Counted from the first letter of the stretch, positions 316-46,213 are shown. The stretch is 64,000 bases of DNA from an uncultured Candidatus Saccharibacteria bacterium (GCA_964646515.1 CAZYES010000001.1:7582-71581); one strand, 5' to 3'. Made by a program: numbers and translations. The notes: a model not told the origin generated them from the letters alone.

Positions 316-324
316 TGCTATAAT
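316..324 (+). promoter_or_regulatory. Extended -10 promoter TGCTATAAT, 9 nt upstream of ATG 334
   Basis: Exact TGnTATAAT match; no Shine-Dalgarno site between it and the ATG. Confidence 0.5.
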
Positions 325-333
325 ATATGCAAT

Positions 334-2082: not shown

Positions 2083-2083
2083 T

Positions 2084-3304: not shown

Positions 3305-3320
3305 ATTATTCTTTTTAGAC

Positions 3321-4625: not shown

Positions 4626-4627
4626 GG

Positions 4628-5212: not shown

Positions 5213-5213
5213 G

Positions 5214-5699: not shown

Positions 5700-6163
5700 T
5701 TTATGATGTTAATATCTCCTTGGCTGCCTATAAAAATATTTTTTACACGAGAAGGATCTGTAATATATTGTATAGTTATTGTGGCCATAGTCTGTGGTAT
5801 ACCAGAAAGTCTAGCGAAAACTACACTACCTAGACTGTTGGGAGTAGTGGCGATCATATAACCATTTGTGACAGCGTAATTTTCGTTGGTTGTTGCTGAG
5901 GGATTGAATGAATTGCCCACGAAGTATGTGTAAGTAGTACTACCAAAATCTATTCCTGCCCCTGTTCCATTTTTTCCGAATGTGGCATTGATTTTTGCTT
6001 GTTCTAACTTGGAAACAATCGCGTCTGTAAGCGTGTTTATCTCACTCGATCGTTTTGCATTTATAAAAGCTTGGGTACTAATGCCGAAAAGCACGACCAT
6101 TATAATCATAACGACCAAAATTTCTATGAGAGTAAATCCTCTGTTATTGATTTGATCCCGCAT
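5696..6163 (-). CDS. Type IV pilin-like protein (first gene of pilin operon)
   Basis: NRG|FTLIEILVVMIIMVVLFG class III signal with Glu at +5. Confidence 0.85.
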   Translation of the reverse strand: MRDQINNRGFTLIEILVVMIIMVVLFGISTQAFINAKRSSEINTLTDAIVSKLEQAKINATFGKNGTGAGIDFGSTTYTYFVGNSFNPSATTNENYAVTNGYMIATTPNSLGSVVFARLSGIPQTMATITIQYITDPSRVKNIFIGSQGDINIIK

Positions 6164-6198: not shown

Positions 6199-6984
6199 AT
6201 GACTAATAAAAAATTGATTGTTGGCAATTGGAAAATGAACCCGGCAACACTGGATGAGGCCAAGAGAATCGCCAGAAAGACTAAGAGGGTTGCTACACAA
6301 CTCAAGTATACAGAAGCAATAATCTGTCCGCCGTTTGCTTTCATTTCTGCTTGTGCCTCGAGAAAAAAAATATCGGGTTTTGGTCTTGGCGCACAGAATG
6401 TCTCATATGAAGAAGACGGTGCTCATACTGGAGAAGTTGGCGCGGTAATGTTGAAAAATATTGGTGTTCAGTACGTGATTGTTGGGCATTCCGAAGAAAG
6501 AGCGCGGGGAGACTCCGATTCAATTGTCGCGAAAAAAATCAAGACACTTCTCGATTTTGGTCTTACGCCGATAGTTTGTGTTGGCGAGACTGTGCGCAAC
6601 GAAGATGGTTCGCATTTTGAATTTATAAAAGTACAAATAAAAAATAGTTTTGTGGATGTGCCAAAAAAATACGCTGATAAGATTATTCTAGCTTATGAAC
6701 CAGTTTGGGCGATTGGCGCCAAGGAGCCGATGTCACCGGAGAATATATATGAGATGTCGCTATTTGTGAAAAAGACTTTTGCTGATGTTTTTGGACAAAA
6801 GCCAGCGATGAAGATGACTATTTTATATGGGGGCTCAGTAAATTGCAGAAATGCGGTAGATATTATTTCTATCGGCAAGATTGATGGATTGTTGGTTGGA
6901 CGTGAAAGTGTGAATATTGTTGGTTTTGTTGAACTCTTGAAGGCGGTTGATGGTATTTATTCCGGTAGGCCATCTGATTGCTGA
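6199..6984 (+). CDS. tpiA: Triosephosphate isomerase
   Basis: LIVGNWKMN N-terminal motif, VGHSERR-like IVGHSEERA, YEPVWAIG. Confidence 0.9.
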   Translation: MTNKKLIVGNWKMNPATLDEAKRIARKTKRVATQLKYTEAIICPPFAFISACASRKKISGFGLGAQNVSYEEDGAHTGEVGAVMLKNIGVQYVIVGHSEERARGDSDSIVAKKIKTLLDFGLTPIVCVGETVRNEDGSHFEFIKVQIKNSFVDVPKKYADKIILAYEPVWAIGAKEPMSPENIYEMSLFVKKTFADVFGQKPAMKMTILYGGSVNCRNAVDIISIGKIDGLLVGRESVNIVGFVELLKAVDGIYSGRPSDC

Positions 6985-7025
6985 TGATATATGTCGTTAG
7001 TCTTTTTGCTATAATTGTCCAATAT

Positions 7026-8204
7026 ATGAGAACGCTTCGAGATATAGAATTTTTGGAAAACGTAAAAGTATTATTACGTGCTGATTTCAATGTTCCTATA
7101 GAGAATGGCGCGATTGTTGACGATTTTAGGATTCGTGCCACTTTGCCTACGATAGATTATCTGACAAAAAAAGGCGCAAAAGTTATTCTTGTCAGTCATC
7201 TAGAATCGGCAGATGGTAAAAATCTATCGCTTGCGCCGATTGCTGATCATATAAATAGACTTGGGGTCAAGACAAGTTTTATAAAAGATATAAAGAAATC
7301 TTACGAAGTTATTGAAACTTGTGATCCGAAATCTAAAAACGGAGGCAGTTGTTTTTTGTTGGAGAATCTTCGCCTTTTTGAAGGCGAGAAGGCGAATGAT
7401 AGAAAATTTGCAAAAGAATTGGCTTCATTGGCAGACATTTTCGTAAACGACGCCTTTTCTGTTTGTCATCGTAAGCATGCTTCAATAATCGGCGTGACGG
7501 AGTTTTTACCGAGCTACGCAGGATTACAATTGGAAGAAGAGATCAGTCATCTTTCGATGGCTTTCAACCCCACTCGTCCATTTCTTTTTGTTTTGGGAGG
7601 AGCAAAATTCGAAACCAAGTTGCCATTATTGCAAAAATTTATTGATAAAGTCGATACGGTTTTTGTTGGTGGGGCGTTGGTTAATGATTTGTTAAAGTCA
7701 AAGGGTTATGAAGTGGGCAAGTCGATAACTTCAAAAACAGAAGTTGATCTTACTGATATTATAAATAGTCCAAATCTTTTGTTGCCAGTGGATATTGTTA
7801 ATCAAGATAAGGTCTGCAAGGCCGTTGGCAGGCTCTCGTCTGAAGATATTAACATGGATATTGGTCCAGAGACTTTGGCTTTACTTGTTGAGAAGATCAA
7901 ATCGGCCAGATTTATTCTTTGGAATGGCCCACTTGGTAAGTATGAAAGTGGTTTCAAAGAAGCAACGCTTCAATTTGCCAAGGCCTTAGGTGATATAACG
8001 GAAAAAAGTAAAAGTTATAATGACCAAGAAAAGGCTGTATCTATTGTTGGTGGCGGGGATACTTTGGCGACAATTTCTCTGTTGGGGATTGAGAGAGAAT
8101 TTACTTTTGTGTCTACAGGCGGTGGCGCTATGCTAGACTTTTTGGCCGAGGGAACGTTACCTGGTATTTTGGCACTGGAAAATTCACCTAAGCTTGTTCA
8201 TTAA
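7026..8204 (+). CDS. pgk: Phosphoglycerate kinase
   Basis: ORF 6978..8204. Conserved N-terminus (VLLRADFNVP) begins after ATG 7026; C-terminal STGGGA motif present. Confidence 0.9.
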   Translation: MRTLRDIEFLENVKVLLRADFNVPIENGAIVDDFRIRATLPTIDYLTKKGAKVILVSHLESADGKNLSLAPIADHINRLGVKTSFIKDIKKSYEVIETCDPKSKNGGSCFLLENLRLFEGEKANDRKFAKELASLADIFVNDAFSVCHRKHASIIGVTEFLPSYAGLQLEEEISHLSMAFNPTRPFLFVLGGAKFETKLPLLQKFIDKVDTVFVGGALVNDLLKSKGYEVGKSITSKTEVDLTDIINSPNLLLPVDIVNQDKVCKAVGRLSSEDINMDIGPETLALLVEKIKSARFILWNGPLGKYESGFKEATLQFAKALGDITEKSKSYNDQEKAVSIVGGGDTLATISLLGIEREFTFVSTGGGAMLDFLAEGTLPGILALENSPKLVH

Positions 8205-10557: not shown

Positions 10558-11301
10558 ATGAGAAAAAATCCTAGGATAATAATTTTTACAGATGGGTCTT
10601 CACGCGGTAATCCCGGTCCAGGAGGATGGGCCAGTGTTATAGTGACGGGTGTTTTGCCAAAAATAGAGAGTAGAAAAGCCACAGTGACAGAAATAGGTGG
10701 CGCAGAAAAGATGACGACAAATAATAGGATGGAACTTGTGGCGGCAATGCAAGGCATTTCACATACGCCACAAGGTTCAGAAGTAACCGTTTACACGGAT
10801 TCGTCATATTTGATCAATGGTATGACGAAATGGATCAAGAATTGGAAAAGAAATGGTTGGGTTACCAAGACCAAAGGTGATGTGTTGAATAAAGATATAT
10901 GGATAACGCTTGATCGATATGTTAACGAGAGAAGTATCAGTTGGAAATATGTTGGTGGGCACATTGGTATTGTGGGCAATGAAAGATGTGATCATATAGC
11001 CACTAGTTTTGCTGATGGTATAAAAATAGAATTATATAGGGGTTTTCTTTCTGGGTATGATTTGCCCAATATCGTGAATATATCGGAAGACGACAAAAAA
11101 GTTATGATAAAGGAAAACAAATCTTCTCGCTCGAGATTGAAAGCTTATTCATATGTGAGTTTGGTCAATGGCATCATCAAAATTGATCATTCTTGGGCGG
11201 AGTGTGAAAGACGCGTCAAGGGAGTCGGGGGCGCAAGATATAAAAAAGCGACAGATGCTAGTGACGAAGCTAAAATTATCGAGGGATTCAGTATGGCGTA
11301 A
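10558..11301 (+). CDS. rnhA: Ribonuclease HI with a C-terminal hybrid-binding-like domain
   Basis: N-terminal RNase H fold with DEDD candidates (FTDGSS, NNRMEL, YTDSSY, NERCDHIA). The C-terminal ~50 aa (AYSYVSLVNGIIKIDHSWAECERRVKGVGGARYKKATDASDEAKIIEGF) resembles the RNase H1 N-terminal hybrid-binding domain. Confidence 0.8.
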   Translation: MRKNPRIIIFTDGSSRGNPGPGGWASVIVTGVLPKIESRKATVTEIGGAEKMTTNNRMELVAAMQGISHTPQGSEVTVYTDSSYLINGMTKWIKNWKRNGWVTKTKGDVLNKDIWITLDRYVNERSISWKYVGGHIGIVGNERCDHIATSFADGIKIELYRGFLSGYDLPNIVNISEDDKKVMIKENKSSRSRLKAYSYVSLVNGIIKIDHSWAECERRVKGVGGARYKKATDASDEAKIIEGFSMA

Positions 11302-16478: not shown

Positions 16479-18623
16479 ATGAAACGTGACTACCCGTTAG
16501 AACAAGTAAGAAACTTTGGAATTATTGCTCATATCGACGCTGGTAAGACGACTACATCGGAACGTATCTTGTACTATACGGGTATGACCCATAAAATTGG
16601 GGAAGTTCACGAAGGTGAGACGGTCACTGATTGGATGGAGCAAGAAAGGGAGCGCGGTATTACGATCACAGCGGCTGCCATTACTTGTTTTTGGAATCCA
16701 ACATACATGCCACCGACAGACGTTTCCAAAAAAGTGCGTTTCAATATTATTGATACCCCAGGACACATCGACTTTACTGTTGAAGTGAAGCGTTCTCTTC
16801 GAGTTCTCGATGGGGCAGTTGTGGTATTCGATGGTGTGGCGGGTGTTGAACCACAGTCCGAGACCAATTGGAGGTATGCCGATGACGAAAAAGTCCCACG
16901 GCTTTGTTTTATCAACAAAATGGACCGTATAGGCGCTTCTTTTGATAAGTCGTTCAAATCGATTCTAGAAAGACTCAACAAAAAAGCAGTTAGATTTCAG
17001 ATTCCTATTGGCTTGGAGGGGGGTCATGTTGGCGTTGTCGATCTGATGCGTATGAAAGCTTATTATTTTGAGGGTGAATTGGGTAACAAAATTATTGAAA
17101 AAGACATTCCCGCGGAATTATTAGAAGATGCAAAGAAATATCACGCAGAAATGGTTGAGAAGATTGTCGAACATGACGACCTAGCTATGCAGAAGTATTT
17201 AGAGGGGCAAGAAATCACCATTGGTGAACTCAAGGCAATTACCAGAAAAGCGGTTATCAATAATGACATGTTTCCTGTCTTTACCGGCTCTGCTTTGAAA
17301 AATGTTGGTGTGCAATTGGTTTTGGATGCGGTCGTTGATTATCTGCCATCTCCTCTGGATATTCCTCCAGTAAAGGGAATAAATCCGGAAACCGGCGAAG
17401 AAGTTGTTCGTCACGCTTCCGATGATGAGCCTTTTTGCGCTTTGGCTTTCAAGTTGCAGAATGATCCATTTGTCGGGGCTTTGACTTTCTTTAGGGTCTA
17501 TTCAGGAACTATAGAAGCTGGTACCTACATTTACAATGTCTCTACAGGCAAGAGAGAACGTCTAGGGCGCATGGTGCGCTTGCAGGCAGATCAGAGGGAA
17601 GAAGTCAAAAAAGTTTTTGCCGGAGAGATTGCTGCCGCCGTTGGACTCAAAGACGCGTTAACTTCAAACACTTTTTGTGATGAAAAAAACCCGATTGTAC
17701 TCGAGATTATCAAGTTTATGGAGCCTGTTATTTCACTTAGGATTGAGCCAAAGACCAAGGCCGATCAAGAAAAAATGGGTTTGGCGCTACGCAAGTTGAG
17801 CAACGAAGATCCGACATTCAAGATTTCTTCCAACCAAGAGACGGGCGAGACTATTGTTTCCGGAATGGGCGAGCTTCATCTGGAGATTATGGTTGATCGC
17901 ATGAAGCGTGAATTTAGTGTAGAGGCCAATGTCGGCGAACCGCAGGTAGCATATCGAGAAACTATCCTTGGTAGTGCCGAAGCCGAGCATAAATATATCA
18001 AGCAGACTGGCGGTAAGGGTCAGTATGGCCATGTAAGGTTGAACTTGAAACCTATGGAACCGTGGCCAGAGGGCGAAAAAATACCAAAGACCGTTCATCG
18101 TTATGATGATTTTGAATTTATGAACTCTATAAAAGGTGGCGTTATCCCCAATGAATTTATTCCTGCGGTAGAAAAGGGTGTTCATGAAGCCATGGGCCGT
18201 GGCATTGTTGCTGGTTACAAAATGGTCAACATTTCTTGTGAATTGACATTTGGTTCTTATCACGATGTTGACTCTTCGGAGATAGCTTACAAGATTGCTG
18301 CTTCACAAGCTTTTCAAGATGCCGCCAAGCGCGCCAAGCCAGTTATTTTGGAGCCCATAATGAAATTAGAGGTTGTCGCCCCGGAAAAATATATGGGTGA
18401 TATCAATGGCTCCATTGCTTCCAAGCGTGGTCAGATAGAGGGTAGCCAACCAAAAGGTCAAGCCATTTCTATTATTGCCAAAGTACCTTTGGCGGAAATG
18501 TTCGGTTATACCACTCAACTTCGTTCTATGACCTCCGGACAAGGAAGTGCCATGATGGAATTTGATCACTATGAAGTCGTACCAGCTAATGTGGCGGAGG
18601 AGATTGTGGAGAAAAGAAAGTAG
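16479..18623 (+). CDS. fusA: Elongation factor G
   Basis: 714 aa; GTPase motifs AHIDAGKTT, DTPGH, NKMD; str-operon position. Confidence 0.95.
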   Translation: MKRDYPLEQVRNFGIIAHIDAGKTTTSERILYYTGMTHKIGEVHEGETVTDWMEQERERGITITAAAITCFWNPTYMPPTDVSKKVRFNIIDTPGHIDFTVEVKRSLRVLDGAVVVFDGVAGVEPQSETNWRYADDEKVPRLCFINKMDRIGASFDKSFKSILERLNKKAVRFQIPIGLEGGHVGVVDLMRMKAYYFEGELGNKIIEKDIPAELLEDAKKYHAEMVEKIVEHDDLAMQKYLEGQEITIGELKAITRKAVINNDMFPVFTGSALKNVGVQLVLDAVVDYLPSPLDIPPVKGINPETGEEVVRHASDDEPFCALAFKLQNDPFVGALTFFRVYSGTIEAGTYIYNVSTGKRERLGRMVRLQADQREEVKKVFAGEIAAAVGLKDALTSNTFCDEKNPIVLEIIKFMEPVISLRIEPKTKADQEKMGLALRKLSNEDPTFKISSNQETGETIVSGMGELHLEIMVDRMKREFSVEANVGEPQVAYRETILGSAEAEHKYIKQTGGKGQYGHVRLNLKPMEPWPEGEKIPKTVHRYDDFEFMNSIKGGVIPNEFIPAVEKGVHEAMGRGIVAGYKMVNISCELTFGSYHDVDSSEIAYKIAASQAFQDAAKRAKPVILEPIMKLEVVAPEKYMGDINGSIASKRGQIEGSQPKGQAISIIAKVPLAEMFGYTTQLRSMTSGQGSAMMEFDHYEVVPANVAEEIVEKRK

Positions 18624-18974: not shown

Positions 18975-20426
18975 ATGAAATTAGACAAATCTTTTTTTGG
19001 AAAGGAATTCAAGTATATTCTCATTCTTACTATTTTGGCCTGGATGGTTTATTCATTGCCACAAGTCAAGGAGTCTATGAGTAGACCGGTTGTTAGCGAT
19101 CCTGCCACAAGCAGTGTGGCGGCAGTAGGAGCGACTTCTGTGGCAACATGCCCCGGGGGATATATCTGTATACCTATTTCTCGGGCCAATAGTTATTGTC
19201 CAGCAGGATATACATGTACTCAAACGGCGACTACTTCACAGCCGTATATTAGTCTGAACGCTTCCTCGACCAATATCGGTCTAGGCCAATCTACAGTCGT
19301 ATTTTGGTCTACGAACAATGTGACCAATTGTGTCGGCACACAGGATGGCGGTGACGAGAAAGTGCCAGCCATATTCAGTGCTCCAGCCACAAGGGGCTCA
19401 TTTACTGTTACTCCATCACAAAGTGTCACTTATACATTGGCATGTTCTTTTGGGACAGTAGGTAAGATGTCAAAGAGTGTGACCATAAATGTGGGGCAAT
19501 ATCAATCATCTTGGCCAAGTTCTATTTCTGCGACTATAAATAGTGCGACTCCACTCAAGGGTCTTGTTCAAATATCAGAAACAGTGCCTACTTCCAATGT
19601 GTCATTGATGGTCTTCAATTTGAAATCGACGAACGGAACATCAACGCTTCGACAGATTAAGCTAAGTGTACAGATGAGCACATCTTCTCCCGATGCACGT
19701 TTATTTAACAACATGAAACTTAAGGCAGGTGGCAATATTTACTCGGCATTTTATATATATGAGCATAATAATATTGCAGATGTTGTATTCTCTGATATGT
19801 CAATAACATTGCCAAGCAATGCCACTGTCGCATTTATCTTAACTGCCGACATAGCTGCGGATTTACAGCGCAGGTTTGACGGTGTTGGTATTCGTGCGTA
19901 TCTTCAAGCAGATAAATCAAGTATATATGCCGAATATGGTGCTCGACAGTTACCAGTAAATATGGCGAATATTACAGGGAATACTCTTACACTTGTTAGT
20001 AATTCTCCTATCGTTAGTAATTTGTCGACCTTGTATGGCGTTCCCACTACTAACGGATATGGCTCTACTACCCAAAAATTTTCTTTCCGCTTTGCGATCA
20101 CGGCTAATGCAGATCCGATCTATTTGTCGAGATCATTGAATAGCGCTATTAGTACTTCAACTGTGCCCAATCCTAGTAATATATTTATTTCCCCTATCAG
20201 CTTTTCTGATACTGATGCGAGTGGCGATGGCCCAGGATATTTATATATTGCTCCTGGCCAAACGAAGACCTTCACTGCTATCTACTCAGGTTCTGGTCAG
20301 AGTTCAGCAGTTGGTACGTTCAACGTAAGTGCTATCAACTACGGAACGTCATCAGATGCTCTTACCTCGGCATCTATAACTTCGTCGCAGATCACCAACG
20401 GATTAAAAGCAGTCTTGTTTCATTAG
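18975..20426 (+). CDS. Secreted or anchored hypothetical protein with paired CPxGYxC motifs and beta-sandwich-like repeats
   Basis: 483 aa; N-terminal hydrophobic segment; CPGGYICIP and CPAGYTCT motifs. Architecture resembles the ORF at 62234. Confidence 0.75.
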   Translation: MKLDKSFFGKEFKYILILTILAWMVYSLPQVKESMSRPVVSDPATSSVAAVGATSVATCPGGYICIPISRANSYCPAGYTCTQTATTSQPYISLNASSTNIGLGQSTVVFWSTNNVTNCVGTQDGGDEKVPAIFSAPATRGSFTVTPSQSVTYTLACSFGTVGKMSKSVTINVGQYQSSWPSSISATINSATPLKGLVQISETVPTSNVSLMVFNLKSTNGTSTLRQIKLSVQMSTSSPDARLFNNMKLKAGGNIYSAFYIYEHNNIADVVFSDMSITLPSNATVAFILTADIAADLQRRFDGVGIRAYLQADKSSIYAEYGARQLPVNMANITGNTLTLVSNSPIVSNLSTLYGVPTTNGYGSTTQKFSFRFAITANADPIYLSRSLNSAISTSTVPNPSNIFISPISFSDTDASGDGPGYLYIAPGQTKTFTAIYSGSGQSSAVGTFNVSAINYGTSSDALTSASITSSQITNGLKAVLFH

Positions 20427-20718: not shown

Positions 20719-21906
20719 ATGGCAGCAGAATTCAATCGTTCCAAGCCACATGTCAATGTAGGCACAATTGGTCACATTGACCACGGCAAATCTACTTTGA
20801 CCGCCGCTATTTTGGCTGTTCAAGCCAAAAAGGGGTTGGCCAAGATGAAAGCTTACGCGGATATTACCAAAGGTGGTACTGTACGCGATGCTACAAAGAC
20901 CGTTACTATTTCTCTCTCACACGTCGAGTATGAGAGTCCAAATCGTCACTATGCGCATATCGATTGTCCAGGGCACGCTGATTTTATAAAAAACATGATT
21001 ACTGGTGCCGCTCAGATGGACGGTGCCATCCTCGTAGTTTCTGCTACTGACGGTGTTATGCCACAGACTCGCGAACATGTACTTTTGGCTTTTCAAGTCG
21101 GAGTACCAAAGATCATTGTATTTTTGAACAAGTGTGATCTCGTTCCAGAAACCGATCTTATCGATCTCGTAGAGGAAGAAGTGCGTGAACTTCTCACCAA
21201 AAATAAGTTCGATGGAAAGAATACCCCGGTTATTAGAGGCTCGGCTTCCAAGGCTCTCGAGGGTGATGCGACTTGGTCTACCAAGATAGACGAACTCATG
21301 AATGCTCTCGATACCTATATTCCTACCCCCGTACGTGAAGTTGATAAACCTTTCCTTATGCCGATCGAAGACATCTTTTCTATCGAAGGTCGTGGGACAG
21401 TTGTCACCGGTCGCATCGAACGTGGCAGTATCAAACTCAATGACGAAGTAGAGATTGTCGGGTTCAAAGATACTACCAAGACAGTTGTCACTGGCATAGA
21501 AATGTTCAACAAATCTCTAAAGGAAGGTATGGCAGGGGATAATGCTGGTCTACTTCTCCGTGGTACAGCCAAGGATGCTGTCTCTCGCGGGCAAGTTCTC
21601 TCAAAACCAGGTTCAGTAAAACCGCATAGCGAGTTTGAGTCTGAAGTTTATGTTTTGAAGAAAGAAGAGGGCGGACGCCATACGCCGTTCTTTACTGGCT
21701 ATAAACCGCAGTTTTATATTCGTACTACTGATGTAACTGGTGAGGTGACTCTTCCTGAGAAAGTAGAAATGGTCATGCCTGGGGATACAGTTACGTTCAA
21801 GGTGAAATTGGTTGCTCCAGTTGCCCTAGAAGCACAACAGCGTTTTGCCGTTCGTGAAGGAGGCAAGACAGTCGGTGCCGGTGTCGTGACTAAGGTTATT
21901 GCCTAG
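20719..21906 (+). CDS. tuf: Elongation factor Tu
   Basis: 395 aa; [21 protein letters not shown] motifs. Confidence 0.97.
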
Positions 21907-40086: not shown

Positions 40087-41868
40087 ATGAAGGAAGAACT
40101 TATCAGTTTATTGAAGAGTGCCACAATCAGTTGTGGTATTCACGATACTTCTATCAAGATCGATTACCCAGAAAATCCAGACCATGGTGATTTTTCGACG
40201 AATGTTGCTATGATTAACGCCAAAAAACTGGGAACTTCGCCGAAAGATTTGGCAGACAAAATTATTGGTGAATTTAATAATCATTTACCTGATTTTGTTC
40301 AAAGCGTGGACGTTGCTGGTCCGGGTTTTATCAATTTTTTTGTGAAAGACGCAGAATTTGCCAGAGAAATATTGAAGATAAACAGTTCGATGAAAGACCC
40401 CTCATTTTCTTATGGTAGATTGAACGCCAGTGTTGGAGAAAAAATAATGGTGGAATACACGGACCCAAATACATTCAAGGTTTTTCATATTGGCCATTTG
40501 ATGTCAAATGCTATTGGAGAGTCCATTGTCAGATTGGCCGAATATTCTGGAGCGAAAATGATCAGATTATGTTATTCATCAGACATAGGTTTGCATATTG
40601 CCAAGGCGGTTTGGGCACTGCAAAAACATTTCGATGAAATGCCCAGTGATTCGGCCTCTATCCAGAGCAAAACTGAATTTTTAGGAAAAATGTATGTAGA
40701 AGGAGTCAAAAAGTATGACGAAGACGAAGATACAAAAATGGAAATAGATATTCTCAATAAGGTTATTTATGAGAGATCTGATCCTACGGTGATTGGACTC
40801 TATGAAAAAGGTAGACGATGGAGCCTAGAACATTTCGAAATGCTGTATAAAACATTGGGAACTTCGTTTGATGATATGATTTTTGAAAGCGACATGGCGC
40901 CAATCGGTCTAGAGATCGTTCGGGAATATATGAAAAAAGGCGTGTTTGAAGAGAGTCAAAATGCTGTAGTCTTCAGTGGTGAGAAGTTTGGATTGCATAC
41001 CAGAGTATTCGTGAACTCCAGAGGTATACCGACTTATGAAGCCAAAGATATCGGCCTGAACGTGACGAAATTTAAAAAATACCCAGATGCTTCGCAGTCG
41101 GTCATCATAACGGCCAATGAGCAAGATGATTATTTCAAGGTACTTATCAAGGTCTTGTCTCTAATTGATGAGAAAAATGGTTCGAAGACCAGGCATATCG
41201 GTCATGGAATGATGAGATTTATTGACGGGAAGATGTCATCACGCACCGGCAACGTGATTACGGCCGAGTCACTTTTTTCTGATATAAAAGAGATAGTTTC
41301 AGAGAAGATTGCTGACAGAAAATTTACCAAAGAAGAGGCAGATGAGATTTCTGATATTATCGTTGTTGGGGCCATCAAATATACGATCTTGAGACAATCA
41401 ATCGGTAGTGATGTGGCGTTCGACTCTGCCACCTCAGTCTCGTTTGAAGGAGACTCTGGTCCATATTTGCAGTATTCAGCAGTGAGGGCACGATCGATTA
41501 TCGAAAAGGCGAGAGAGGAGGGGATGATAGGGGCGCAAAAATCAGATACCGAATTTTTAGGAGCCAAGAATTTCAGAGAGGGAGATATATTATCGATAAA
41601 AATCGCAGAGAAAGTCGGAATGTTAGAGAAACTGATTGTCAGGTTTCCTCATGTTGTCGAAAGGTCTAGAGTTGAGTATGCGCCTCAGAATGTCGCCAAT
41701 TATTTGACATCTCTGGCTGGCGCCTTCAACAATTTTTATGCAACGCAGACGATTGTCGACAGGAGGGATGAGTTGTCGCCTTATTATTTGGCGCTAGTGA
41801 GGACGTTTTTGGAGACCATGACCAATGGCTTATGGTTATTGGGGATCAAGGTGCCAGATAAGATGTGA
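40087..41868 (+). CDS. argS: Arginyl-tRNA synthetase
   Basis: 593 aa; class I signature region (YTDPNTFKVFHIGHL), MSSRTG (KMSKS-equivalent), C-terminal anticodon-binding DALR-like domain. Confidence 0.92.
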   Translation: MKEELISLLKSATISCGIHDTSIKIDYPENPDHGDFSTNVAMINAKKLGTSPKDLADKIIGEFNNHLPDFVQSVDVAGPGFINFFVKDAEFAREILKINSSMKDPSFSYGRLNASVGEKIMVEYTDPNTFKVFHIGHLMSNAIGESIVRLAEYSGAKMIRLCYSSDIGLHIAKAVWALQKHFDEMPSDSASIQSKTEFLGKMYVEGVKKYDEDEDTKMEIDILNKVIYERSDPTVIGLYEKGRRWSLEHFEMLYKTLGTSFDDMIFESDMAPIGLEIVREYMKKGVFEESQNAVVFSGEKFGLHTRVFVNSRGIPTYEAKDIGLNVTKFKKYPDASQSVIITANEQDDYFKVLIKVLSLIDEKNGSKTRHIGHGMMRFIDGKMSSRTGNVITAESLFSDIKEIVSEKIADRKFTKEEADEISDIIVVGAIKYTILRQSIGSDVAFDSATSVSFEGDSGPYLQYSAVRARSIIEKAREEGMIGAQKSDTEFLGAKNFREGDILSIKIAEKVGMLEKLIVRFPHVVERSRVEYAPQNVANYLTSLAGAFNNFYATQTIVDRRDELSPYYLALVRTFLETMTNGLWLLGIKVPDKM

Positions 41869-41899: not shown

Positions 41900-44800
41900 A
41901 TGAATCCAGTTAATGTGGAGAAAAATAATATAGAGGATAAGAAAATTGCAAAGACATCTCACGCCGAACGCGAAGAGCGCATTTTGGCTTTTTGGAAAGA
42001 GAATCATATTTTCGAAAAGTCTTTGACCAAACCGTCGCCAAAAGGTGAATACATTTTTTATGATGGTCCACCATTCGCCAACGGTTTACCTCATTATGGC
42101 CATCTACTTGCCGGGATTATCAAAGATGTTGTGCCAAGATTCAAGACTATGCGAGGTTATCATGTTCCAAGACGCTGGGGTTGGGATTGCCACGGTCTAC
42201 CAGTGGAAAATTTGGTTGAAAAAGAGCTTGGGCTGAAAAGTAAAAAAGACATTGTCAATTACGGTATTGAAAAATTCAATGAGGTAGCGCGCCAGAGTGT
42301 TATGCGTTATGCCGATGAGTGGAGAACGATAGTTCCGCGCTTGGGACGTTTTATCGATATGGATTCTTCCACAAACTCAGGCAAGGGGCATGATTATCGT
42401 ACCATGGACGCCTCTTACACGGAGACGGTCTGGTGGATATTCAAGCGGTTACATGACAAACATTTGATTTACGAAGGTTTCAAGTCTATGAATCTGTGTC
42501 CACGGTGCGAGACGACACTTTCGAACTTTGAGGTGGCACAGGGATACAAAGACATCACGGATATTTCCGTTACGGTTAAATTTAGAGTTAAAGATGAAAA
42601 ATTTGGGGGCAAAGACAGTTCAGACACATTCTTGTTGGCGTGGACAACGACTCCGTGGACTTTGCCAGGTAATGTTGCTCTGGCAGTTAATTCAAAAATT
42701 GATTATATAAAAGTTAGAATTGCCGAACAGGGCACTTTTATTCTTGCAAAGGACAGATTGTCGATCTTAAAAGATGCCAAATATGAAGTTGTCGAGACGA
42801 TTCGAGGTACAGCACTTATTGGAATAGGTTACGAACCATTATTTGACTACTATTCAAATAATACAAATCTTAAAGATCGTGCCAATGGTTGGAAAGTATA
42901 TGGCGCAGATTTTGTGACTACAGAAGACGGGACAGGTATCGTTCATATTGCTCCAGCTTTTGGGGCCGATGATTATATGTTATTGCAAAGATATAAACTT
43001 CCATTTGTCCAACACGTTACGACTGACGGCAAGTTCAAGAAAGAGGTTTCTGATTTCTCGGGAATGAGCGTGAAACCAATCGATACTAAAGATGAAAAAG
43101 ATGCTCATCAAAAAGCAGATGTAGAGATTATCAAATGGTTGGCGCACCACGATCTTTTATTTGCAAAAGAGAAATTGATCCACTCATATCCGCACTGTTG
43201 GAGATGCGATACGCCACTTTTGAATTATGCCTCTTCTTCATGGTTCGTGAAAGTGACAGACTTAAAAGGTAAATTAGTGGCGGAGAATAAGAAAGTTACT
43301 TGGGTACCGCCAGAGGTTGGTGAGGGTAGATTTGGTAATTGGCTCGAGGGGGCTCGTGATTGGGCGATCTCTAGAAGCAGGTTTTGGGGAGCACCAATAC
43401 CAGTGTGGAGAGAGGAATATCTGGAAAAAGATGGTAAAAACCTGTCGGCAGGTAAAACCAATTATAGAGCTGATGGTGATACGGAAAAGATTCACGTTGT
43501 TGGTTCAGTCGAAGATTTGAAAAAATACAGTAAAGCCAAAAATACCTATTATGTAATGAGACATGGTGAAGCAGAGAATAATGAAAAAGGTGTGCTCGAT
43601 GGTTCTGTATCGTCAGTTTTCAGATTGACCGATAAAGGCAGACAGCAAGTTGCCGATTCAGCTAAAAATTTCAAGAAATTACACGAAGATGTACTTATTG
43701 ATCTAGTCATTGTGTCGCCAATACTACGGACCCGCGAAACAGCCGACATTTTCATAGAGAACTTTGGGCTTACCAAAGATAAGATAGTTATTGACGAGCG
43801 TATCCGAGAGTACGATCCTGGCATTCTTGATGGTCACAAAATATCCGAATTAAAAGATATCATCAATGGCCAGGATAGGTTCACGTGGAAACCAGACGGT
43901 GGAGAGAATTATCAAGATATCAAAAAACGCATGGGAGATTTCCTGTATGAAATGGAAAACAAATATTCCAATAAATCAATCTTGATCGTTACGCACGAGA
44001 CACCGGCCTTACTCCTTTTTTCTTCGGCTTACGGACTGACTCTCTCAGATACCAAGTCTTTGCGCCCTTCCGGAGATTTCATCGCCAATGCAGAGATTCG
44101 GAAATTGGATTTTACGCCCCTACCGCACAATGATAGGCATGAACTCGATTTGCATCGACCATTTATCGATGATCTTCAGTTGAGGACGGACGAAGGTAAT
44201 AGGTTGGTTAGAGTGCCAGATGTATTCGATTGTTGGTTCGAATCGGGAGCCATGCCATATGCGTCAAATCATTATCCTTTTGAGAATGTTGGCTTTGAGC
44301 CAAAGCCCGGACCATTTAAAAAACCCAGAGGTTATCCTGCGGATTTTATTGCCGAAGGGCTAGATCAGACCAGAGGTTGGTTTTATTCGATGATGGTTTT
44401 GGGTGTAGCACTTTTTGGTAAGACTCCTTATAAAAAAGTCATCGTAAATGGGCTGGTTTTGGCGGAAGATGGTCAGAAGATGTCCAAACGCAAACAGAAT
44501 TATCCAGATCCGATGCGATTGGTAGACAAATATGGCGCAGATTCTCTCAGATTTTATCTTCTTTCATCTCCAGTGGTACATGGCGAGGATCTTTGCTTTA
44601 GCGAGAGGGGAGTTGACGAAGTCACAAAGAAGATAGTCAATCGATTGCTCAACGTAGTCTCATTTTACGAAATGTATGTCGGCGGGCTGAAGGCTCGTGA
44701 TATATTATCTAAAGTCAGCTCTAGTAATGTTCTTGACTTGTGGATATTGAACAGACTCAACGAGACTATCTCCATAGTAACAAAAGCGCTTGAAGCAGGT

Positions 44801-45580
44801 GAGCTAGATAAAGCAGTGAGGCCATTTATGGATTTTACAGATGATCTTTCCACTTGGTATATTCGACGCTCTCGTGACAGATTCAAGGCTCTTGCCGACA
44901 AGACAGCAAAAGTCGATTATCCTAATGATGAGGACAAAGACTCGGCACTTGCTACCACTTGTTTTGTGCTACTGACAACCGCAAAAATACTAGCTCCATT
45001 TATGCCTTTTTTGTCGGAAGAAATCTATTCGAGAGTTGGTGGTGATCTAGAGTCGGTACATCTCGAAGAATGGCCGACGGCGAATGCGGTCGATTCAACA
45101 TCGATCGGCTCCATGAATATAGTACGAGGCATTTCTTCCAAGGCGTTAGAGGCGCGCATGAAGGTGAAGATAAATGTGAGACAACCACTTGCAAAATTGA
45201 AAGTCAGAGACACAAATCTAAAGGATCTGGGCGCATCGCTTATTGGTCTGATCAAAGACGAAGTAAATATCAAAGAAGTATCTTTTGATTCCACTATTGT
45301 GAATGATATAGAATTGGACACAGTTATTACCCCTGAATTGAAGGAAGAGGGCATAGTCCGTGAGCTGATTCGTATTATCCAAGATTTGCGTAAGAAAAAA
45401 GGATTGACCATGAATGATAGGGTGGTGCTTTTCGTCGGCACCGATAATGTGGGAAAGGATCTGGTTGAAAAGAATCGTTCGAAGTTGATGGCCACGACGT
45501 CGCTAAGAGAGATAAAATATGACGGCACCGGTTCTGAAGAATTTAGGATTGGTGACTTGGTCTTTAGGCTATCTATATAA
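41900..45580 (+). CDS. ileS: Isoleucyl-tRNA synthetase (type 2-like) with an inserted histidine-phosphatase-superfamily domain
   Basis: HYGH signature (PPFANGLPHYGHLL), editing-domain motif TTPWTLPGN, KMSKR. Residues ~550-746 carry RHGEAENN, SPILRTRETA, REYDPG and VTHETP motifs between VGSVEDL and DLHRPFID. Confidence 0.92.
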   Translation: MNPVNVEKNNIEDKKIAKTSHAEREERILAFWKENHIFEKSLTKPSPKGEYIFYDGPPFANGLPHYGHLLAGIIKDVVPRFKTMRGYHVPRRWGWDCHGLPVENLVEKELGLKSKKDIVNYGIEKFNEVARQSVMRYADEWRTIVPRLGRFIDMDSSTNSGKGHDYRTMDASYTETVWWIFKRLHDKHLIYEGFKSMNLCPRCETTLSNFEVAQGYKDITDISVTVKFRVKDEKFGGKDSSDTFLLAWTTTPWTLPGNVALAVNSKIDYIKVRIAEQGTFILAKDRLSILKDAKYEVVETIRGTALIGIGYEPLFDYYSNNTNLKDRANGWKVYGADFVTTEDGTGIVHIAPAFGADDYMLLQRYKLPFVQHVTTDGKFKKEVSDFSGMSVKPIDTKDEKDAHQKADVEIIKWLAHHDLLFAKEKLIHSYPHCWRCDTPLLNYASSSWFVKVTDLKGKLVAENKKVTWVPPEVGEGRFGNWLEGARDWAISRSRFWGAPIPVWREEYLEKDGKNLSAGKTNYRADGDTEKIHVVGSVEDLKKYSKAKNTYYVMRHGEAENNEKGVLDGSVSSVFRLTDKGRQQVADSAKNFKKLHEDVLIDLVIVSPILRTRETADIFIENFGLTKDKIVIDERIREYDPGILDGHKISELKDIINGQDRFTWKPDGGENYQDIKKRMGDFLYEMENKYSNKSILIVTHETPALLLFSSAYGLTLSDTKSLRPSGDFIANAEIRKLDFTPLPHNDRHELDLHRPFIDDLQLRTDEGNRLVRVPDVFDCWFESGAMPYASNHYPFENVGFEPKPGPFKKPRGYPADFIAEGLDQTRGWFYSMMVLGVALFGKTPYKKVIVNGLVLAEDGQKMSKRKQNYPDPMRLVDKYGADSLRFYLLSSPVVHGEDLCFSERGVDEVTKKIVNRLLNVVSFYEMYVGGLKARDILSKVSSSNVLDLWILNRLNETISIVTKALEAGELDKAVRPFMDFTDDLSTWYIRRSRDRFKALADKTAKVDYPNDEDKDSALATTCFVLLTTAKILAPFMPFLSEEIYSRVGGDLESVHLEEWPTANAVDSTSIGSMNIVRGISSKALEARMKVKINVRQPLAKLKVRDTNLKDLGASLIGLIKDEVNIKEVSFDSTIVNDIELDTVITPELKEEGIVRELIRIIQDLRKKKGLTMNDRVVLFVGTDNVGKDLVEKNRSKLMATTSLREIKYDGTGSEEFRIGDLVFRLSI

Positions 45581-46213
45581 ATGTACTCGATTGTTACCAC
45601 TTACGGATTTGTCATCGATTCGCGACCACATGGCGAGGCGGGTCGAATATTGTCGATATTTACGCGTGATCTCGGGCTCGTCTTTGTAACTGCGCAAGGC
45701 ATACGTCTAGAAAAGTCGAAACTCCGTTATTATACACAGGAGTATTCATTTGGACGATATTCATTGGTAAGAGGAAAGGAATTTTGGCGATTAACAAGTG
45801 CGCAAGATGTTGATTCAAGGATAAAAATGTCTGTCTCCCCGGTCTCTCTTGCCGAGACAACGTGGGCTATAAAATACGTTAACCACAGACAAGAATTGAT
45901 TGCGCGTATCGCTTTATTATTGAAGAGGTTACTTCATGGCGAAGAGGCGCATGCAGAATTATTCGAGTGTGTCTATTCTTGTGCCGGATTTTTGTATGAG
46001 CAACCACATTTTACGGCTGAACGGTTAGAAACTTTCGAGTCGGTTGTAGTCTTGAGGATTCTACGTTTACTTGGTTACATAGGCGATGATCCATTACTCG
46101 GCGAAAAAATGCAATCGTCAAATATCACAGTCAAATTGTTGGATGACTTGGCAATGAAAAGAGTGTTGATCAATCAGCACATCAACAAGGCCCTGAGAGA
46201 ATCTCATCTATGA
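45581..46213 (+). CDS. recO: DNA repair protein RecO-like (no zinc-finger Cys motif)
   Basis: N-terminal OB-fold pattern (GFVIDSRPHGEAGRILSIFTRDLGLVFVTAQGIRLEKSKLR) and C-terminal LRILRLLGYIG resemble RecO. Confidence 0.65.
   Translation: MYSIVTTYGFVIDSRPHGEAGRILSIFTRDLGLVFVTAQGIRLEKSKLRYYTQEYSFGRYSLVRGKEFWRLTSAQDVDSRIKMSVSPVSLAETTWAIKYVNHRQELIARIALLLKRLLHGEEAHAELFECVYSCAGFLYEQPHFTAERLETFESVVVLRILRLLGYIGDDPLLGEKMQSSNITVKLLDDLAMKRVLINQHINKALRESHL

What the first reader, a model, noticed from the sequence alone, without database searches (positions are those of the whole stretch)
43547..44137. Apparently intact histidine-phosphatase (PGAM-like) domain nested inside isoleucyl-tRNA synthetase
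The 1226-aa IleRS is about 190 aa longer than usual. Between the conserved blocks ...HVVGSVEDLKKY... and ...LDLHRPFIDD...RVPDVFDCWFESGAMPYA, other type-2 IleRS have only a short linker. This ORF instead carries a contiguous segment with all four hallmark motifs of the histidine phosphatase superfamily, in order: RHGEAENN (catalytic RHG), SPILRTRETA, REYDPGILDG, and ILIVTHETP (second His). The reading frame is uninterrupted and the synthetase motifs on both sides (HYGH, TTPWTLPGN, KMSKR) are intact. This therefore looks like a domain insertion into a surface loop of the Rossmann fold, not a gene fusion artefact or an intein. I know of no described IleRS with an embedded phosphatase. A role in nucleotide or aminoacyl-adenylate-related chemistry, in regulation, or in moonlighting is conceivable but unsupported.
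Basis: partly seen in the sequence, partly recalled or inferred. Interest (0 to 1): 0.72.

Follow-up and report, generated by a model that had tools for sequence, protein, structure and literature searches.

The report
Active phosphatase domain nested inside IleRS
This isoleucyl-tRNA synthetase really does carry a complete, apparently active histidine-phosphatase domain spliced into its catalytic core. This is an unreported but widespread design in the tiny-celled Patescibacteria, whose relatives keep the same phosphatase as a separate gene next to tRNA-synthetase genes, so the two enzymes probably work together.

Summary
ORF 41900..45580 (+) is a genuine type-2 IleRS of 1226 aa, and residues 548-746 form an intact His_Phos_1 domain (Pfam E=1.8e-27; AF2 pLDDT 95). 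The domain sits in the CP3 zinc-knuckle hairpin of the catalytic core. It is not an assembly artefact or an intein. All 120 closest homologues share the architecture, and all 121 sequences keep the catalytic residues (R554, H555, R610, E637, H699), although the domain is only about 45% identical among them.

The new context is as follows. In related Patescibacteria the same phosphatase subfamily is a standalone gene. Seven of the eight examined lie next to an aaRS gene, usually as argS-hp-ileS-recO, and one lies next to proS. The subfamily is also fused to the ArgRS C-terminus and to TsaC. Some IleRS carry 2-4 copies, sometimes at other sites.

The fold belongs to the small-molecule phosphomonoesterases (PspA, PhoE, CobC, GpgP), but no curated family threshold is reached, so the substrate is unknown.

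My best reading is a bifunctional IleRS-phosphatase whose phosphatase is functionally tied to adenylate-forming tRNA enzymes (about 0.55). The main rival is a genetically linked but mechanistically unrelated housekeeping phosphatase (about 0.3). I found no literature describing it. I class it as a new variant of known kinds.

The parts
41900..45580 (+). ileS: type-2 isoleucyl-tRNA synthetase of 1226 aa with a nested phosphatase domain
   Evidence: ORF. TIGR00392 scores 868 bits against a cutoff of 621. Pfam finds tRNA-synt_1, Anticodon_1 and DUF5915. The best solved relative is 8C8U, P. megaterium IleRS2, at E=2e-204.
41900..43417 (+). IleRS N-terminal part (residues 1-506): first half of the catalytic domain, CP core, CP1 editing domain and CP2, up to the WGAPIPVW strand. 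It includes HYGH (42092-42103), the retained zinc site CPRC (42497-42508) and CWRC (43196-43207), and the editing motifs TTPWTLPGN (42647-42673) and APAFGADD (42950-42973).
   Evidence: Identity among the 120 homologues is 75-86% for the catalytic parts and 68% for the editing domain.
43418..43501 (+). Variable, low-complexity extra linker (residues 507-534, YLEKDGKNLSAGKTNYRADGDTEKIHVV) at the position of the first half of the CP3 zinc knuckle. The Cys ligands are lost here.
   Evidence: The segment aligns in only 29 of 120 homologues, with 18% identity. Relatives without the insert have CxxC at this position. pLDDT is below 50.
43493..43540 (+). Conserved N-terminal junction (HVVGSVEDLKKYSKAK, residues 532-547). 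This is the CP3 hairpin strand leading into the phosphatase.
   Evidence: 80% mean identity across homologues. The GS.EEL motif is shared with insert-less IleRS2.
43541..44137 (+). Nested His_Phos_1 (branch-1 histidine phosphatase) domain, residues 548-746
   Evidence: Pfam E=1.8e-27 in the full protein and 3.8e-29 alone. pLDDT is 84-95 in the full-length model and 95.1 with pTM 0.92 in the domain model. Foldseek top hits are PspA, TIGAR, GpgP, HFP, PhoE and CobC with TM 0.74-0.80.
43559..43564 (+). Catalytic Arg554-His555 of the RHG motif. His555 is the predicted phospho-accepting nucleophile.
   Evidence: Invariant in 121 of 121 nested homologues and in all standalone, fused and multi-copy domains.
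43727..43729 (+). Arg610, the second phosphate-pocket arginine (SPILRTRET)
   Evidence: Invariant.
43808..43810 (+). Glu637, the predicted general acid (IREYDPG)
   Evidence: Glu in 121 of 121 nested homologues. It is Glu or Asp in standalone forms.
43994..43996 (+). His699, the second catalytic histidine (IVTHETP)
   Evidence: Invariant.
44114..44173 (+). [quoted passage not shown]
   Evidence: 71% mean identity. The P.[NR]...LDLH.P motif is also present in some insert-less IleRS.
44138..45577 (+). [quoted passage not shown]
40087..41868 (+). argS (ArgRS, 593 aa), 31 nt upstream of ileS. It belongs to the conserved argS-(hp)-ileS-recO block.
   Evidence: Pfam finds Arg_tRNA_synt_N, tRNA-synt_1d and DALR_1. 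Synteny is shared with L001, L003, L005, L006, L007, L089 and L091.
45581..46213 (+). recO-like gene that starts directly after the ileS stop codon. It is the downstream member of the conserved block.
   Evidence: Pfam RecO_N, with the same order in related loci.

Best explanation
The gene encodes a bifunctional protein. It is a normal, complete type-2 IleRS (synthetic site, CP1 editing domain and anticodon-binding domains all intact). A catalytically competent branch-1 histidine phosphatase of the small PhoE/PspA/CobC/GpgP type is nested at the tip of its CP3 zinc-knuckle hairpin and joined by short, conserved junctions.

Shown: the domain is intact, it folds confidently on its own, and it keeps the full catalytic set (R554, H555, R610, E637, H699) in every relative. 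The architecture is lineage-wide in Patescibacteria. The same phosphatase subfamily also occurs as a standalone gene wedged between argS and ileS, as a C-terminal fusion to ArgRS, next to proS, and fused to the TC-AMP synthase TsaC.

Inferred: the phosphatase works by the standard two-step mechanism of the superfamily. His555 attacks a phosphomonoester to form a phospho-histidine intermediate, Glu637 acts as general acid/base, and water then releases phosphate. I also infer that its activity is functionally tied to adenylate-forming enzymes of tRNA metabolism and is not there by accident.

Given coupling, my ranking of substrate classes is:
- about 50%: a small nucleotide-type phosphomonoester made or used in the aminoacylation cycle (AMP-like or 2'/3'-phosphorylated nucleotides), because the fold class and the acidic surface favour small molecules;
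- about 25%: a phosphorylated aaRS protein;
- about 15%: a phosphorylated tRNA 3' end;
- about 10%: something else.

The nested form most likely arose from the neighbouring hp gene. Whether that happened once or several times is unresolved.
For: Domain integrity:
- Pfam E=1.8e-27.
- pLDDT 95.1 and pTM 0.92.
- Foldseek matches to solved phosphatases with TM 0.74-0.80.

Selection on catalysis:
- All five catalytic residues are present in 121 of 121 sequences, while the domain is only 45% identical on average. The synthetase core is 75-86% identical.
- The residues are also retained in every copy of the multi-copy proteins and in the standalone and fused forms.

Not an artefact:
- All 120 top homologues carry PF00300.
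- 21 named genomes have it at the same site.

IleRS is intact.

Coupling:
- Seven of eight standalone hp genes are adjacent to an aaRS gene. L001, L005, L006, L007 and L089 show argS-hp-ileS, and L089 has overlapping stop and start codons. L091 has argS-hp with ileS on the opposite strand. L092 has proS.
- ArgRS::HP occurs in 3 clusters, one only 49% identical to the others.
- TsaC::HP occurs in 4 clusters.
- A second HP domain occurs at other IleRS sites, and tandem copies occur.
- The junctions are conserved at 80% and 71%, which suggests a fixed docking.

The IleRS proteins with an upstream hp gene are among the closest insert-less relatives of the query (52% and 46% identity). L001 groups with the query clade at 68% bootstrap.
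Against: - No substrate can be assigned. No family member reaches any curated NCBIfam cutoff.
- Fusion is weak evidence in this phylum. Patescibacterial TsaC is fused to many unrelated domains: Ogt, TruB, 2H phosphoesterase, MPG, NUDIX and GNAT.
- Most of the neighbourhood evidence comes from one conserved block (argS-ileS-recO), which could persist through synteny inertia.
- Many Patescibacterial IleRS and ArgRS have no phosphatase at all, so it is not required for aminoacylation.
- The full-length AF2 model is poor (pTM 0.47) and no coordinates were available. Nothing can therefore be said about the distance between the phosphatase pocket and the synthetic site, the editing site or the tRNA path.
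- The domain is net acidic (28 K+R against 33 D+E), which argues against direct tRNA binding.
- At least Peribacteria are reported to have an ordinary inorganic pyrophosphatase, so there is no missing-PPase argument.
Confidence: 0.55

Rival explanations
1. Genetic hitch-hiker. The phosphatase is an ordinary housekeeping small-molecule phosphatase with no mechanistic link to aminoacylation. It happened to sit in the conserved argS-ileS-recO block. In these compact genomes it was fused to ArgRS by stop-codon loss and rearranged into a permissive IleRS surface hairpin. It is now locked in because both activities are needed.
For: - Promiscuous domain fusions in the same phylum, for example TsaC fused to Ogt, TruB, CPDase, MPG, NUDIX and GNAT.
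- The CP3 hairpin and other IleRS loops tolerate unrelated inserts: Y1_Tnp and GNAT in P0184, and a PBECR1-like insert at the same site in L027.
- The domain evolves much faster than the IleRS core (45% against 75-86% identity).
- Many related IleRS and ArgRS lack the phosphatase.
- The structural neighbours are metabolic phosphatases.
Against: - When hp is found outside the argS-ileS block it is again next to an aaRS gene (proS in L092) or fused to TsaC in unrelated surroundings. Landing there by chance is unlikely, given that aaRS genes make up a few percent of a genome.
- Nesting is not a simple read-through fusion. It recurs at the same site in at least four separated IleRS lineages, at other IleRS sites, and in 2-4 copies.
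- The junctions are highly conserved.
Confidence: 0.3
2. Hidden glycolytic enzyme. The domain is the divergent cofactor-dependent phosphoglycerate mutase that some Parcubacteria appear to lack.
For: - Jaffe et al. [quoted passage not shown]
- The best NCBIfam model for most family members is dPGM_arch.
- The window encodes TIM and PGK but has no PGM gene beside them.
Against: - dPGM_arch scores only 70-102 bits against a cutoff of 225. TIGR01258 pgm_1 scores 17.6-44 bits against a cutoff of 81.7.
- The nearest structures are phosphatases of about 200 residues (PspA, GpgP, PhoE, CobC), which rank above the true mutases.
- The motif after the acid residue is the short 'RLREIxxGxxxGK' form. From my own knowledge this is the PhoE/CobC type and lacks the extra dPGM substrate-binding segment.
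- A glycolytic role does not explain the aaRS and TsaC association, or multiple copies within one IleRS.
Confidence: 0.05
3. Non-catalytic module. The domain serves only as a structural substitute for the CP3 zinc knuckle, or as a phosphate- or tRNA-binding pseudo-enzyme.
For: In the query's subclade all four zinc-knuckle cysteines are lost (121 of 121), so the domain could be stabilising CP3. The junctions are conserved.
Against: - Every catalytic residue is invariant despite 55% divergence of the domain.
- Many nested IleRS still have the four cysteines, and many insert-less IleRS2 lack them. Cys loss is therefore independent of the insertion.
- Standalone homologues with the same residues exist.
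- The domain is net acidic.
Confidence: 0.05
4. Artefact or selfish element: an assembly chimera, a read-through of two genes, an intein, or a mobile in-frame element.
For: Insertion into a conserved essential gene at several sites and in several copies superficially resembles the behaviour of inteins or mobile elements.
Against: - The same architecture appears in more than 120 independent assemblies.
- The frame is uninterrupted and the GC content matches the flanks.
- There is no Hint or endonuclease domain, and the junctions lack the Cys/Ser...HN-Cys/Ser/Thr splice signature.
- The domain is ancient and divergent, not a recent spread.
Confidence: 0.01

Closest known systems
Bacterial/eukaryote-like type-2 IleRS (P. 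megaterium IleRS2, PDB 8C8U; T. thermophilus IleRS 1ILE; C. albicans IleRS 6LDK)
   Same: The full domain set is shared: catalytic HUP/Rossmann domain with HIGH and KMSKS, CP core, CP1 editing domain, CP2, CP3, anticodon-binding domain and type-2 C-terminal domains. E-values are 2e-204 to 3e-191. The CP-core zinc site is retained.
   Different: A phosphatase domain of about 200 aa, plus about 28 aa of extra linker, is nested in the CP3 hairpin where the solved enzymes have about 22 residues. The CP3 zinc-knuckle cysteines present in T. thermophilus IleRS and in many relatives are lost in this subclade.
Small branch-1 histidine phosphatases: PspA phosphoserine phosphatase (4IJ5/4IJ6), PhoE (1H2E), CobC alpha-ribazole phosphatase (6NRU, 6E4B), Rv2419c GpgP (4PZ9), riboflavin-pathway HFP (9MMH), TIGAR (3E9C)
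   Same: Same fold (TM 0.74-0.80), similar size (about 200 aa), and the same catalytic Arg-His-Arg-Glu-His constellation.
   Different: Identity is only 20-26% and no curated family cutoff is met. The known enzymes are free-standing metabolic enzymes. Here the domain is nested in, fused to, or encoded beside aaRS genes.
IleRS with an N-acetyltransferase domain (NCBIfam NF040702 'ileS_w_GNAT')
   Same: It is a precedent for an IleRS polypeptide that carries a second, unrelated catalytic domain. One relative found here (P0184) carries both a His_Phos and a GNAT domain.
   Different: The extra domain is of a different family. The query scores 320 bits against a cutoff of 1999. I found no literature on the GNAT form either.
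Bifunctional RNase H/acid phosphatase (Rv2228c type, NCBIfam NF005567)
   Same: A CobC/PhoE-like histidine phosphatase domain is fused to a nucleic-acid enzyme. It is the second- or third-best NCBIfam hit for this family at 47-84 bits.
   Different: It is a terminal fusion, not a nested one. The partner is RNase H and the cutoff of 326 is not met.
CP1 editing domain of class Ia aaRS (a conceptual analogue)
   Same: A separate hydrolytic domain is nested within the connective-peptide region of the same catalytic fold and acts on a product of the synthetic site.
   Different: CP1 is ancient, universal in IleRS, ValRS and LeuRS, and has a known function. The phosphatase is confined to Patescibacteria, is absent from many of them, and has no known substrate.

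Membership tests
Isoleucyl-tRNA synthetase (TIGR00392 ileS; type-2 / IleRS2) | Whole-protein score above the curated equivalog cutoff | tested here: met
   868.2 bits against a cutoff of 621.4, in two stretches on either side of the insert.
Isoleucyl-tRNA synthetase (TIGR00392 ileS; type-2 / IleRS2) | Class I signature motifs HIGH and KMSKS | tested here: met
   HYGH at residues 65-68 and KMSKR at 860-864.
Isoleucyl-tRNA synthetase (TIGR00392 ileS; type-2 / IleRS2) | CP1 editing domain, anticodon-binding domain and type-2 C-terminal domains | tested here: met
   TTPWTLPGN and APAFGADD are present. Pfam finds Anticodon_1 and DUF5915. The protein aligns along the whole length of 8C8U IleRS2.
Isoleucyl-tRNA synthetase (TIGR00392 ileS; type-2 / IleRS2) | Isoleucylation of tRNA-Ile | not testable with these tools
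   This needs an aminoacylation assay.
Histidine phosphatase superfamily, branch 1 (Pfam PF00300) | HMM score above the gathering threshold over nearly the full model | tested here: met
   96.7 bits in the full protein and 102.2 bits alone, against a cutoff of 21.7. Model positions 2-182 of 194 are matched.
Histidine phosphatase superfamily, branch 1 (Pfam PF00300) | Catalytic core: the RHG Arg and His nucleophile, a second Arg, a second His, and an acidic general acid | tested here: met
   R554, H555, R610, H699 and E637 are present. They are invariant in 121 of 121 homologues.
Histidine phosphatase superfamily, branch 1 (Pfam PF00300) | The alpha/beta fold of the superfamily | tested here: met
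   AF2 gives pLDDT 95.1 and pTM 0.92. The top 50 Foldseek hits are all histidine phosphatases or mutases, with probability 1.00.
Histidine phosphatase superfamily, branch 1 (Pfam PF00300) | Phosphatase activity through a phospho-histidine intermediate | not testable with these tools
   This needs enzymology with an H555A control.
Cofactor-dependent phosphoglycerate mutase (NF038349 dPGM_arch; TIGR01258 pgm_1) | Score above the curated cutoff | tested here: not met
   dPGM_arch scores 83.6 bits for the insert and 70-102 bits for other family members, against a cutoff of 225. pgm_1 scores 17.6-44 bits against a cutoff of 81.7.
Alpha-ribazole phosphatase CobC (TIGR03162) | Score above the curated cutoff | tested here: not met
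   61.5 bits for the insert and 63-99 bits for other family members, against a cutoff of 162.9.
Phosphoserine phosphatase PspA (NF045917) and SixA phosphohistidine phosphatase (TIGR00249) | Score above the curated cutoff | tested here: not met
   PspA scores 55.5 bits against a cutoff of 350. SixA scores 39.7 bits against a cutoff of 74.5 and matches the N-terminal half only.
IleRS with GNAT domain (NF040702) | Score above the cutoff and presence of a GNAT domain | tested here: not met
   320 bits against a cutoff of 1999. No GNAT domain is found in the query.
Intein | Hint domain and splice-junction residues | tested here: not met
   There is no Hint or intein Pfam hit. The junctions read KAK|NTYY and PHND|RHELD, with no Cys/Ser start and no HN-Cys/Ser/Thr end.

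The most novel reading that the evidence does not exclude
The phosphatase is a dedicated guardian of aminoacylation. It would reverse inactivating phosphorylation of the charging machinery. The target could be aaRS proteins phosphorylated by HipA-like toxin kinases, or tRNA 3'-CCA ends that carry a 2'/3'-phosphate or pyrophosphate after attack by nuclease or RelA/SpoT-homolog toxins. On this reading the nested IleRS is a self-repairing or self-immune synthetase, and the argS-hp-ileS operon is a protected charging module. It would be the first aaRS with a built-in repair or immunity phosphatase.
Probability: 0.13. Interest if true: 0.9.

Novelty: new variant of a known kind. Interest (0 to 1): 0.68.

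Why it matters
Aminoacyl-tRNA synthetases are among the most intensively studied enzymes. In bacteria the class Ia catalytic core is known to host only the CP1 editing domain as a nested catalytic module. This finding shows a second, unrelated hydrolase stably nested in CP3 of IleRS across large parts of the Patescibacteria, a phylum that accounts for a major share of bacterial diversity.

The natural variants form a ready-made experimental series for asking what a phosphatase contributes to tRNA charging. The variants are a free gene between argS and ileS, an ArgRS fusion, a TsaC fusion, the nested form, tandem copies and second-site copies.

If the two activities are coupled, this would reveal a new layer of aaRS chemistry or protection, such as product handling, repair or anti-toxin immunity, in organisms with minimal genomes. 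If they are not coupled, it is a striking case of domain nesting into an essential enzyme by genome compaction.

The feature also has practical consequences. It splits HMM matches and leads NCBI to name these proteins only 'class I tRNA ligase family protein'. It may also confuse metabolic reconstructions, for example as apparent PGM or phosphatase gains and losses.

Tried and rejected
1. Misassembly, chimera or intein. I rejected these. More than 120 independent assemblies share the architecture, there is no Hint domain, and the composition matches the flanks.

2. 'The phosphatase replaced the CP3 zinc knuckle.' This was my own interim idea, and I withdrew it. Many nested IleRS keep all four cysteines and many insert-less IleRS2 lack them.

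3. Inter-domain geometry from AF2. The full-length model was too poor (pTM 0.47, Rossmann core pLDDT below 50) and the tools give no coordinates, so nothing could be measured.

4. Counting nesting events.
- The IleRS NJ bootstrap tree places nested forms in at least four separated lineages. Two of these group with phosphatase-free IleRS, at 100% and 85% bootstrap.
- The phosphatase-domain tree is unresolved.
- I therefore cannot separate one origin plus losses or transfers from several origins. Only NJ was available, not maximum likelihood.

5. Genome-collection scan with the phosphatase-domain alignment.

6. Missing pyrophosphatase as a rationale for PPi hydrolysis. This is not supported, because Peribacteria are reported to have an inorganic pyrophosphatase.

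7. Defence-system membership. There was no meaningful PADLOC hit.

8. Literature. There were 0 papers combining IleRS and 'histidine phosphatase'. Searches on fusions, CPR aaRS, GNAT-IleRS, AARS Online and a 2026 survey of 96,219 IleRS sequences found nothing relevant.

9. Taxon names from cluster look-ups were mostly absent. Some record titles, such as 'uncultured Candidatus Saccharibacteria' and 'Gammaproteobacteria', look like automatic labels, and I do not rely on them.
Full report
**1. Observation**

The window has one uninterrupted ORF at 41900..45580 (+) encoding 1226 aa. NCBIfam identifies it as IleRS: TIGR00392 scores 868 bits against a cutoff of 621. The match falls in two stretches that flank the reported segment. 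Pfam places His_Phos_1 (PF00300) at residues 551-738 with E=1.8e-27. The segment 43547-44137 scanned alone gives E=3.8e-29.

GC content is continuous across the insert. Against the closest solved structure, P. megaterium IleRS2 (8C8U), query residues 18-506 and 746-1168 align to chain residues 7-460 and 483-891. So 239 residues here stand where the solved enzyme has 22.

**2. Where the insert sits**

In IleRS proteins without the insert, this short stretch is a four-cysteine zinc knuckle of the form CxxC ... GS.EEL ... DLH.P.ID ... CxxC. Query residue ~508 aligns to residue 483 of C. albicans IleRS. That position lies in the CP3 subdomain, which spans residues 473-534 in that enzyme. [quoted passage not shown] The phosphatase is therefore nested at the tip of the CP3 hairpin, between 'GSVEDLKKYSKAK' and 'PLPHN..ELDLHRP'.

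In the query and its 120 closest homologues all four CP3 cysteines are gone, while the CP-core zinc site (C200/C203, C433/C436) is kept. I first read this as the phosphatase replacing the zinc knuckle. That reading is wrong in general. Many more distant nested IleRS keep the four cysteines, and many insert-less IleRS2 lack them.

**3. The domain is intact and under selection for catalysis**

- The domain-only AF2 model has pLDDT 95.1 and pTM 0.92. In the otherwise poor full-length model (pTM 0.47) the insert is still at pLDDT 84-95.
- Foldseek places it among phosphomonoesterases of about 200 residues: PspA phosphoserine phosphatase, Rv2419c GpgP, PhoE, CobC, a riboflavin-pathway HFP and TIGAR. 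TM-scores are 0.74-0.80 with 20-26% identity.
- Across 121 nested sequences the domain averages 45% identity to the query, against 75-86% for the catalytic core. Even so, R554, H555, N561, R610, E637, E669 and H699 are present in 121 of 121 sequences.
- The two junction segments are 80% and 71% identical.
- No member of the family reaches any curated NCBIfam cutoff, whether dPGM_arch, CobC, PspA, GpmB or SixA. It is an uncharacterised subfamily and the substrate cannot be transferred by homology.

**4. Distribution**

All 120 best IleRS homologues (57-68% identity, 1142-1332 aa) carry PF00300. Where they are named, they are Patescibacteria, Paceibacterota, Parcubacteria or Taylorbacteria.

A search with the insert alone against 1.84 billion cluster representatives gave 629 hits below 1e-10. 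About 100 of the best 150 are IleRS, or contig-cut IleRS fragments, with the domain at the same site.

A scan of GTDB species representatives with the IleRS alignment returned the 80 best loci, which is a sample biased toward relatives of the query. Of these, 21 have the nested domain. They carry labels such as Paceibacteria, Minisyncoccia, Spechtbacterales and 'Patescibacteria group', as well as Peregrinibacteria and Peribacteria. Uhrbacteria, other Peribacteria, Saccharimonadales and all non-Patescibacteria in the sample lack it. Misassembly is excluded.

**5. The same phosphatase in other arrangements**

The standalone relatives are about 190 aa, 30-38% identical to the insert, and have the same catalytic residues. 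I looked up the genomic context of eight of them.
- Five show argS-hp-ileS-recO with an insert-less ileS of 918-984 aa: L001, L005, L006, L007 and L089. The intergenic gaps are tiny, and in L089 the stop and start codons overlap.
- L091 has argS-hp with ileS on the opposite strand. Its ileS looked split only because of in-frame TGA codons, which indicate a UGA-recoded lineage.
- L092 has hp beside proS.
- L090 has hp beside recO on a truncated contig.

The window itself has argS, ileS with the nested hp, recO, a DUF11/CLIPPER-like gene, glyS, an M16 peptidase and an AI-2E transporter. This is the same block. The window has no second hp copy.

The subfamily is also found in these forms:
- Fused to the C-terminus of ArgRS, in three clusters, one only 49% identical to the others.
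- Fused to the TC-AMP synthase TsaC, in four clusters.
- As two tandem copies in Peribacteria and Peregrinibacteria IleRS, L025 and L029.
- As a second copy at other IleRS sites: after the KMSKS region in P0145 and P0180, and after the DVFDCWFESG motif in P0189 and P0236.
- As about four copies in P0149.

Every copy keeps the catalytic set.

**6. Evolution**

The IleRS proteins with an upstream hp gene are among the closest insert-less relatives of the query: L001 at 52% and L005 at 46% identity, against 63-74% within the nested clade. L001 groups with the query's nested clade at 68% bootstrap.

Nested IleRS fall in at least four well-supported, separated groups. Two of these group with phosphatase-free IleRS, at 100% and 85% bootstrap. 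The phosphatase-domain tree is unresolved. A single ancient nesting followed by losses or transfers cannot be told apart from repeated nesting at the same site with the methods I had. Moving an upstream gene into an internal hairpin is not a simple read-through fusion, and I can only speculate on a route, such as tandem duplication followed by two deletions.

**7. What it most likely does**

The phosphatase chemistry can be inferred with reasonable confidence from the superfamily. This part rests on established knowledge and was not tested here. His555 forms a phospho-enzyme, R554, R610 and H699 hold the phosphate, and Glu637 acts as general acid.

The biology is less certain. The partners are IleRS, ArgRS, ProRS (by adjacency) and TsaC. 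They share ATP-dependent adenylate formation with release of PPi and AMP, and they do not share any one tRNA. Association with such enzymes recurs outside the ancestral block, in the proS neighbour and the TsaC fusions. That pattern is hard to attribute to synteny alone. I therefore favour functional coupling, at about 0.55.

Several things count against over-reading this:
- Patescibacterial TsaC is fused to many unrelated domains.
- Many relatives do without the phosphatase.
- The domain is acidic and resembles small-molecule phosphatases.
- Peribacteria are reported to have an ordinary pyrophosphatase.

Within the coupling reading I rank the substrate classes in this order: a small nucleotide-type phosphomonoester first, a phospho-aaRS second, and a phosphorylated tRNA end third. 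The main rival, at about 0.3, is a housekeeping phosphatase that is only genetically linked.

The idea of a hidden dPGM is prompted by the report that PGM is missing from some Parcubacteria. I consider it unlikely, at about 0.05, given the sub-threshold scores and the phosphatase-type neighbours.

**8. Novelty**

Both component families are well known, and automatic pipelines already record the domain combination. I found no description of it in the literature:
- There were no papers combining IleRS with 'histidine phosphatase'.
- Searches on aaRS fusions and on CPR aaRS found nothing relevant.
- AARS Online does not mention it.
- A 2026 survey of 96,219 IleRS sequences with annotated domain architectures mentions neither a phosphatase nor CPR or Patescibacteria.

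NCBIfam's 'ileS_w_GNAT' model shows that IleRS with an extra catalytic domain has some precedent. I rate this as a new variant of known kinds, with interest 0.68. It is a real, widespread and unexplained feature of a textbook enzyme, and the natural variants make it directly testable.

**9. Limits**

- No coordinates were available, so I have no inter-domain geometry.
- I used NJ trees only.
- Taxon labels come from record titles, and some of those are probably automatic.
- Neighbourhoods were sampled for eight standalone genes, not exhaustively.
- Whole-genome co-occurrence could not be computed.

Noticed in passing
L027:2827-6918 (MAG labelled Segetibacter sp., JANMMU010000071.1), IleRS residues ~575-786: A 1364-aa IleRS has a different insert of about 210 aa at the same CP3 site. 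The insert gives a borderline Pfam match to PBECR1, a phage Barnase-EndoU-ColicinE5/D-RelE-like RNase (27.4 bits against a cutoff of 27.6, E=5e-6). The CP3 hairpin tip may be a hotspot for insertion of RNA-related domains.
   Followed up: partly
P0184 (1066 aa): One IleRS relative carries an in-frame IS200-like Y1 transposase domain (residues 340-461) inside the editing region, the His_Phos domain (680-854) and a C-terminal GNAT domain (935-1063). That makes three foreign domains in one synthetase.
   Followed up: no
L025:2887-7302 and L029:2869-7329; also P0145, P0180, P0189, P0236, P0149: Some IleRS carry two tandem phosphatase domains at the CP3 site (1472-1487 aa, Peribacteria and Peregrinibacteria). 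Others have a second copy after the KMSKS region or after the DVFDCWFESG motif, and P0149 has about four copies. All copies keep the catalytic residues. The tandem copies do not group with each other in the domain tree.
   Followed up: partly
L091:2682-5609 (-), JGI 3300002231: This ileS appears split under code 11 only because of in-frame TGA codons. One falls at the conserved CWRC tryptophan position and another lies further on. The contig therefore comes from a UGA-recoded lineage (code 4 or 25), where hp is still flanked by argS and ileS.
   Followed up: partly
Proteins P0394-P0506: Patescibacterial TsaC (Sua5/YciO/YrdC) is fused to a wide range of partners. The most common is an Ogt-type DNA_binding_1 domain. 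Others are TruB, 2H phosphoesterase/CPDase, methylpurine glycosylase, NUDIX, GNAT and His_Phos. This shows a phylum-wide tendency toward fusions, many of them with nucleic-acid repair or RNA-end enzymes.
   Followed up: no
window 43418-43501 (IleRS residues 507-534): A low-complexity stretch (YLEKDGKNLSAGKTNYRADGDTEKIHVV) precedes the phosphatase. It aligns in only 29 of 120 homologues, at 18% identity, and is modelled with pLDDT below 50. It is a second, lineage-specific expansion at the site of the lost first CxxC.
   Followed up: partly
window 18975-20426 (+): A 483-aa ORF with no Pfam match lies between fusA (EF-G, 16479-18623) and tuf (EF-Tu, 20719-21906), and so interrupts the usual S7/EF-G/EF-Tu arrangement.
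   Followed up: no
window 10558-11301 (+): An RNase H gene of 247 aa has its RNase_H domain at residues 6-150 only. The remaining ~95 C-terminal residues have no Pfam match. In actinobacteria RNase H is fused to a CobC-like histidine phosphatase, but that is not the case here.
   Followed up: no
window 1-64000: ARAGORN found no tRNA or tmRNA gene anywhere in the 64 kb. The window also carries type IV pilus genes (310-6163), tpiA-pgk (6199-8204) with no adjacent PGM gene, recJ and comEC. This gene content is typical of Patescibacteria.
   Followed up: no
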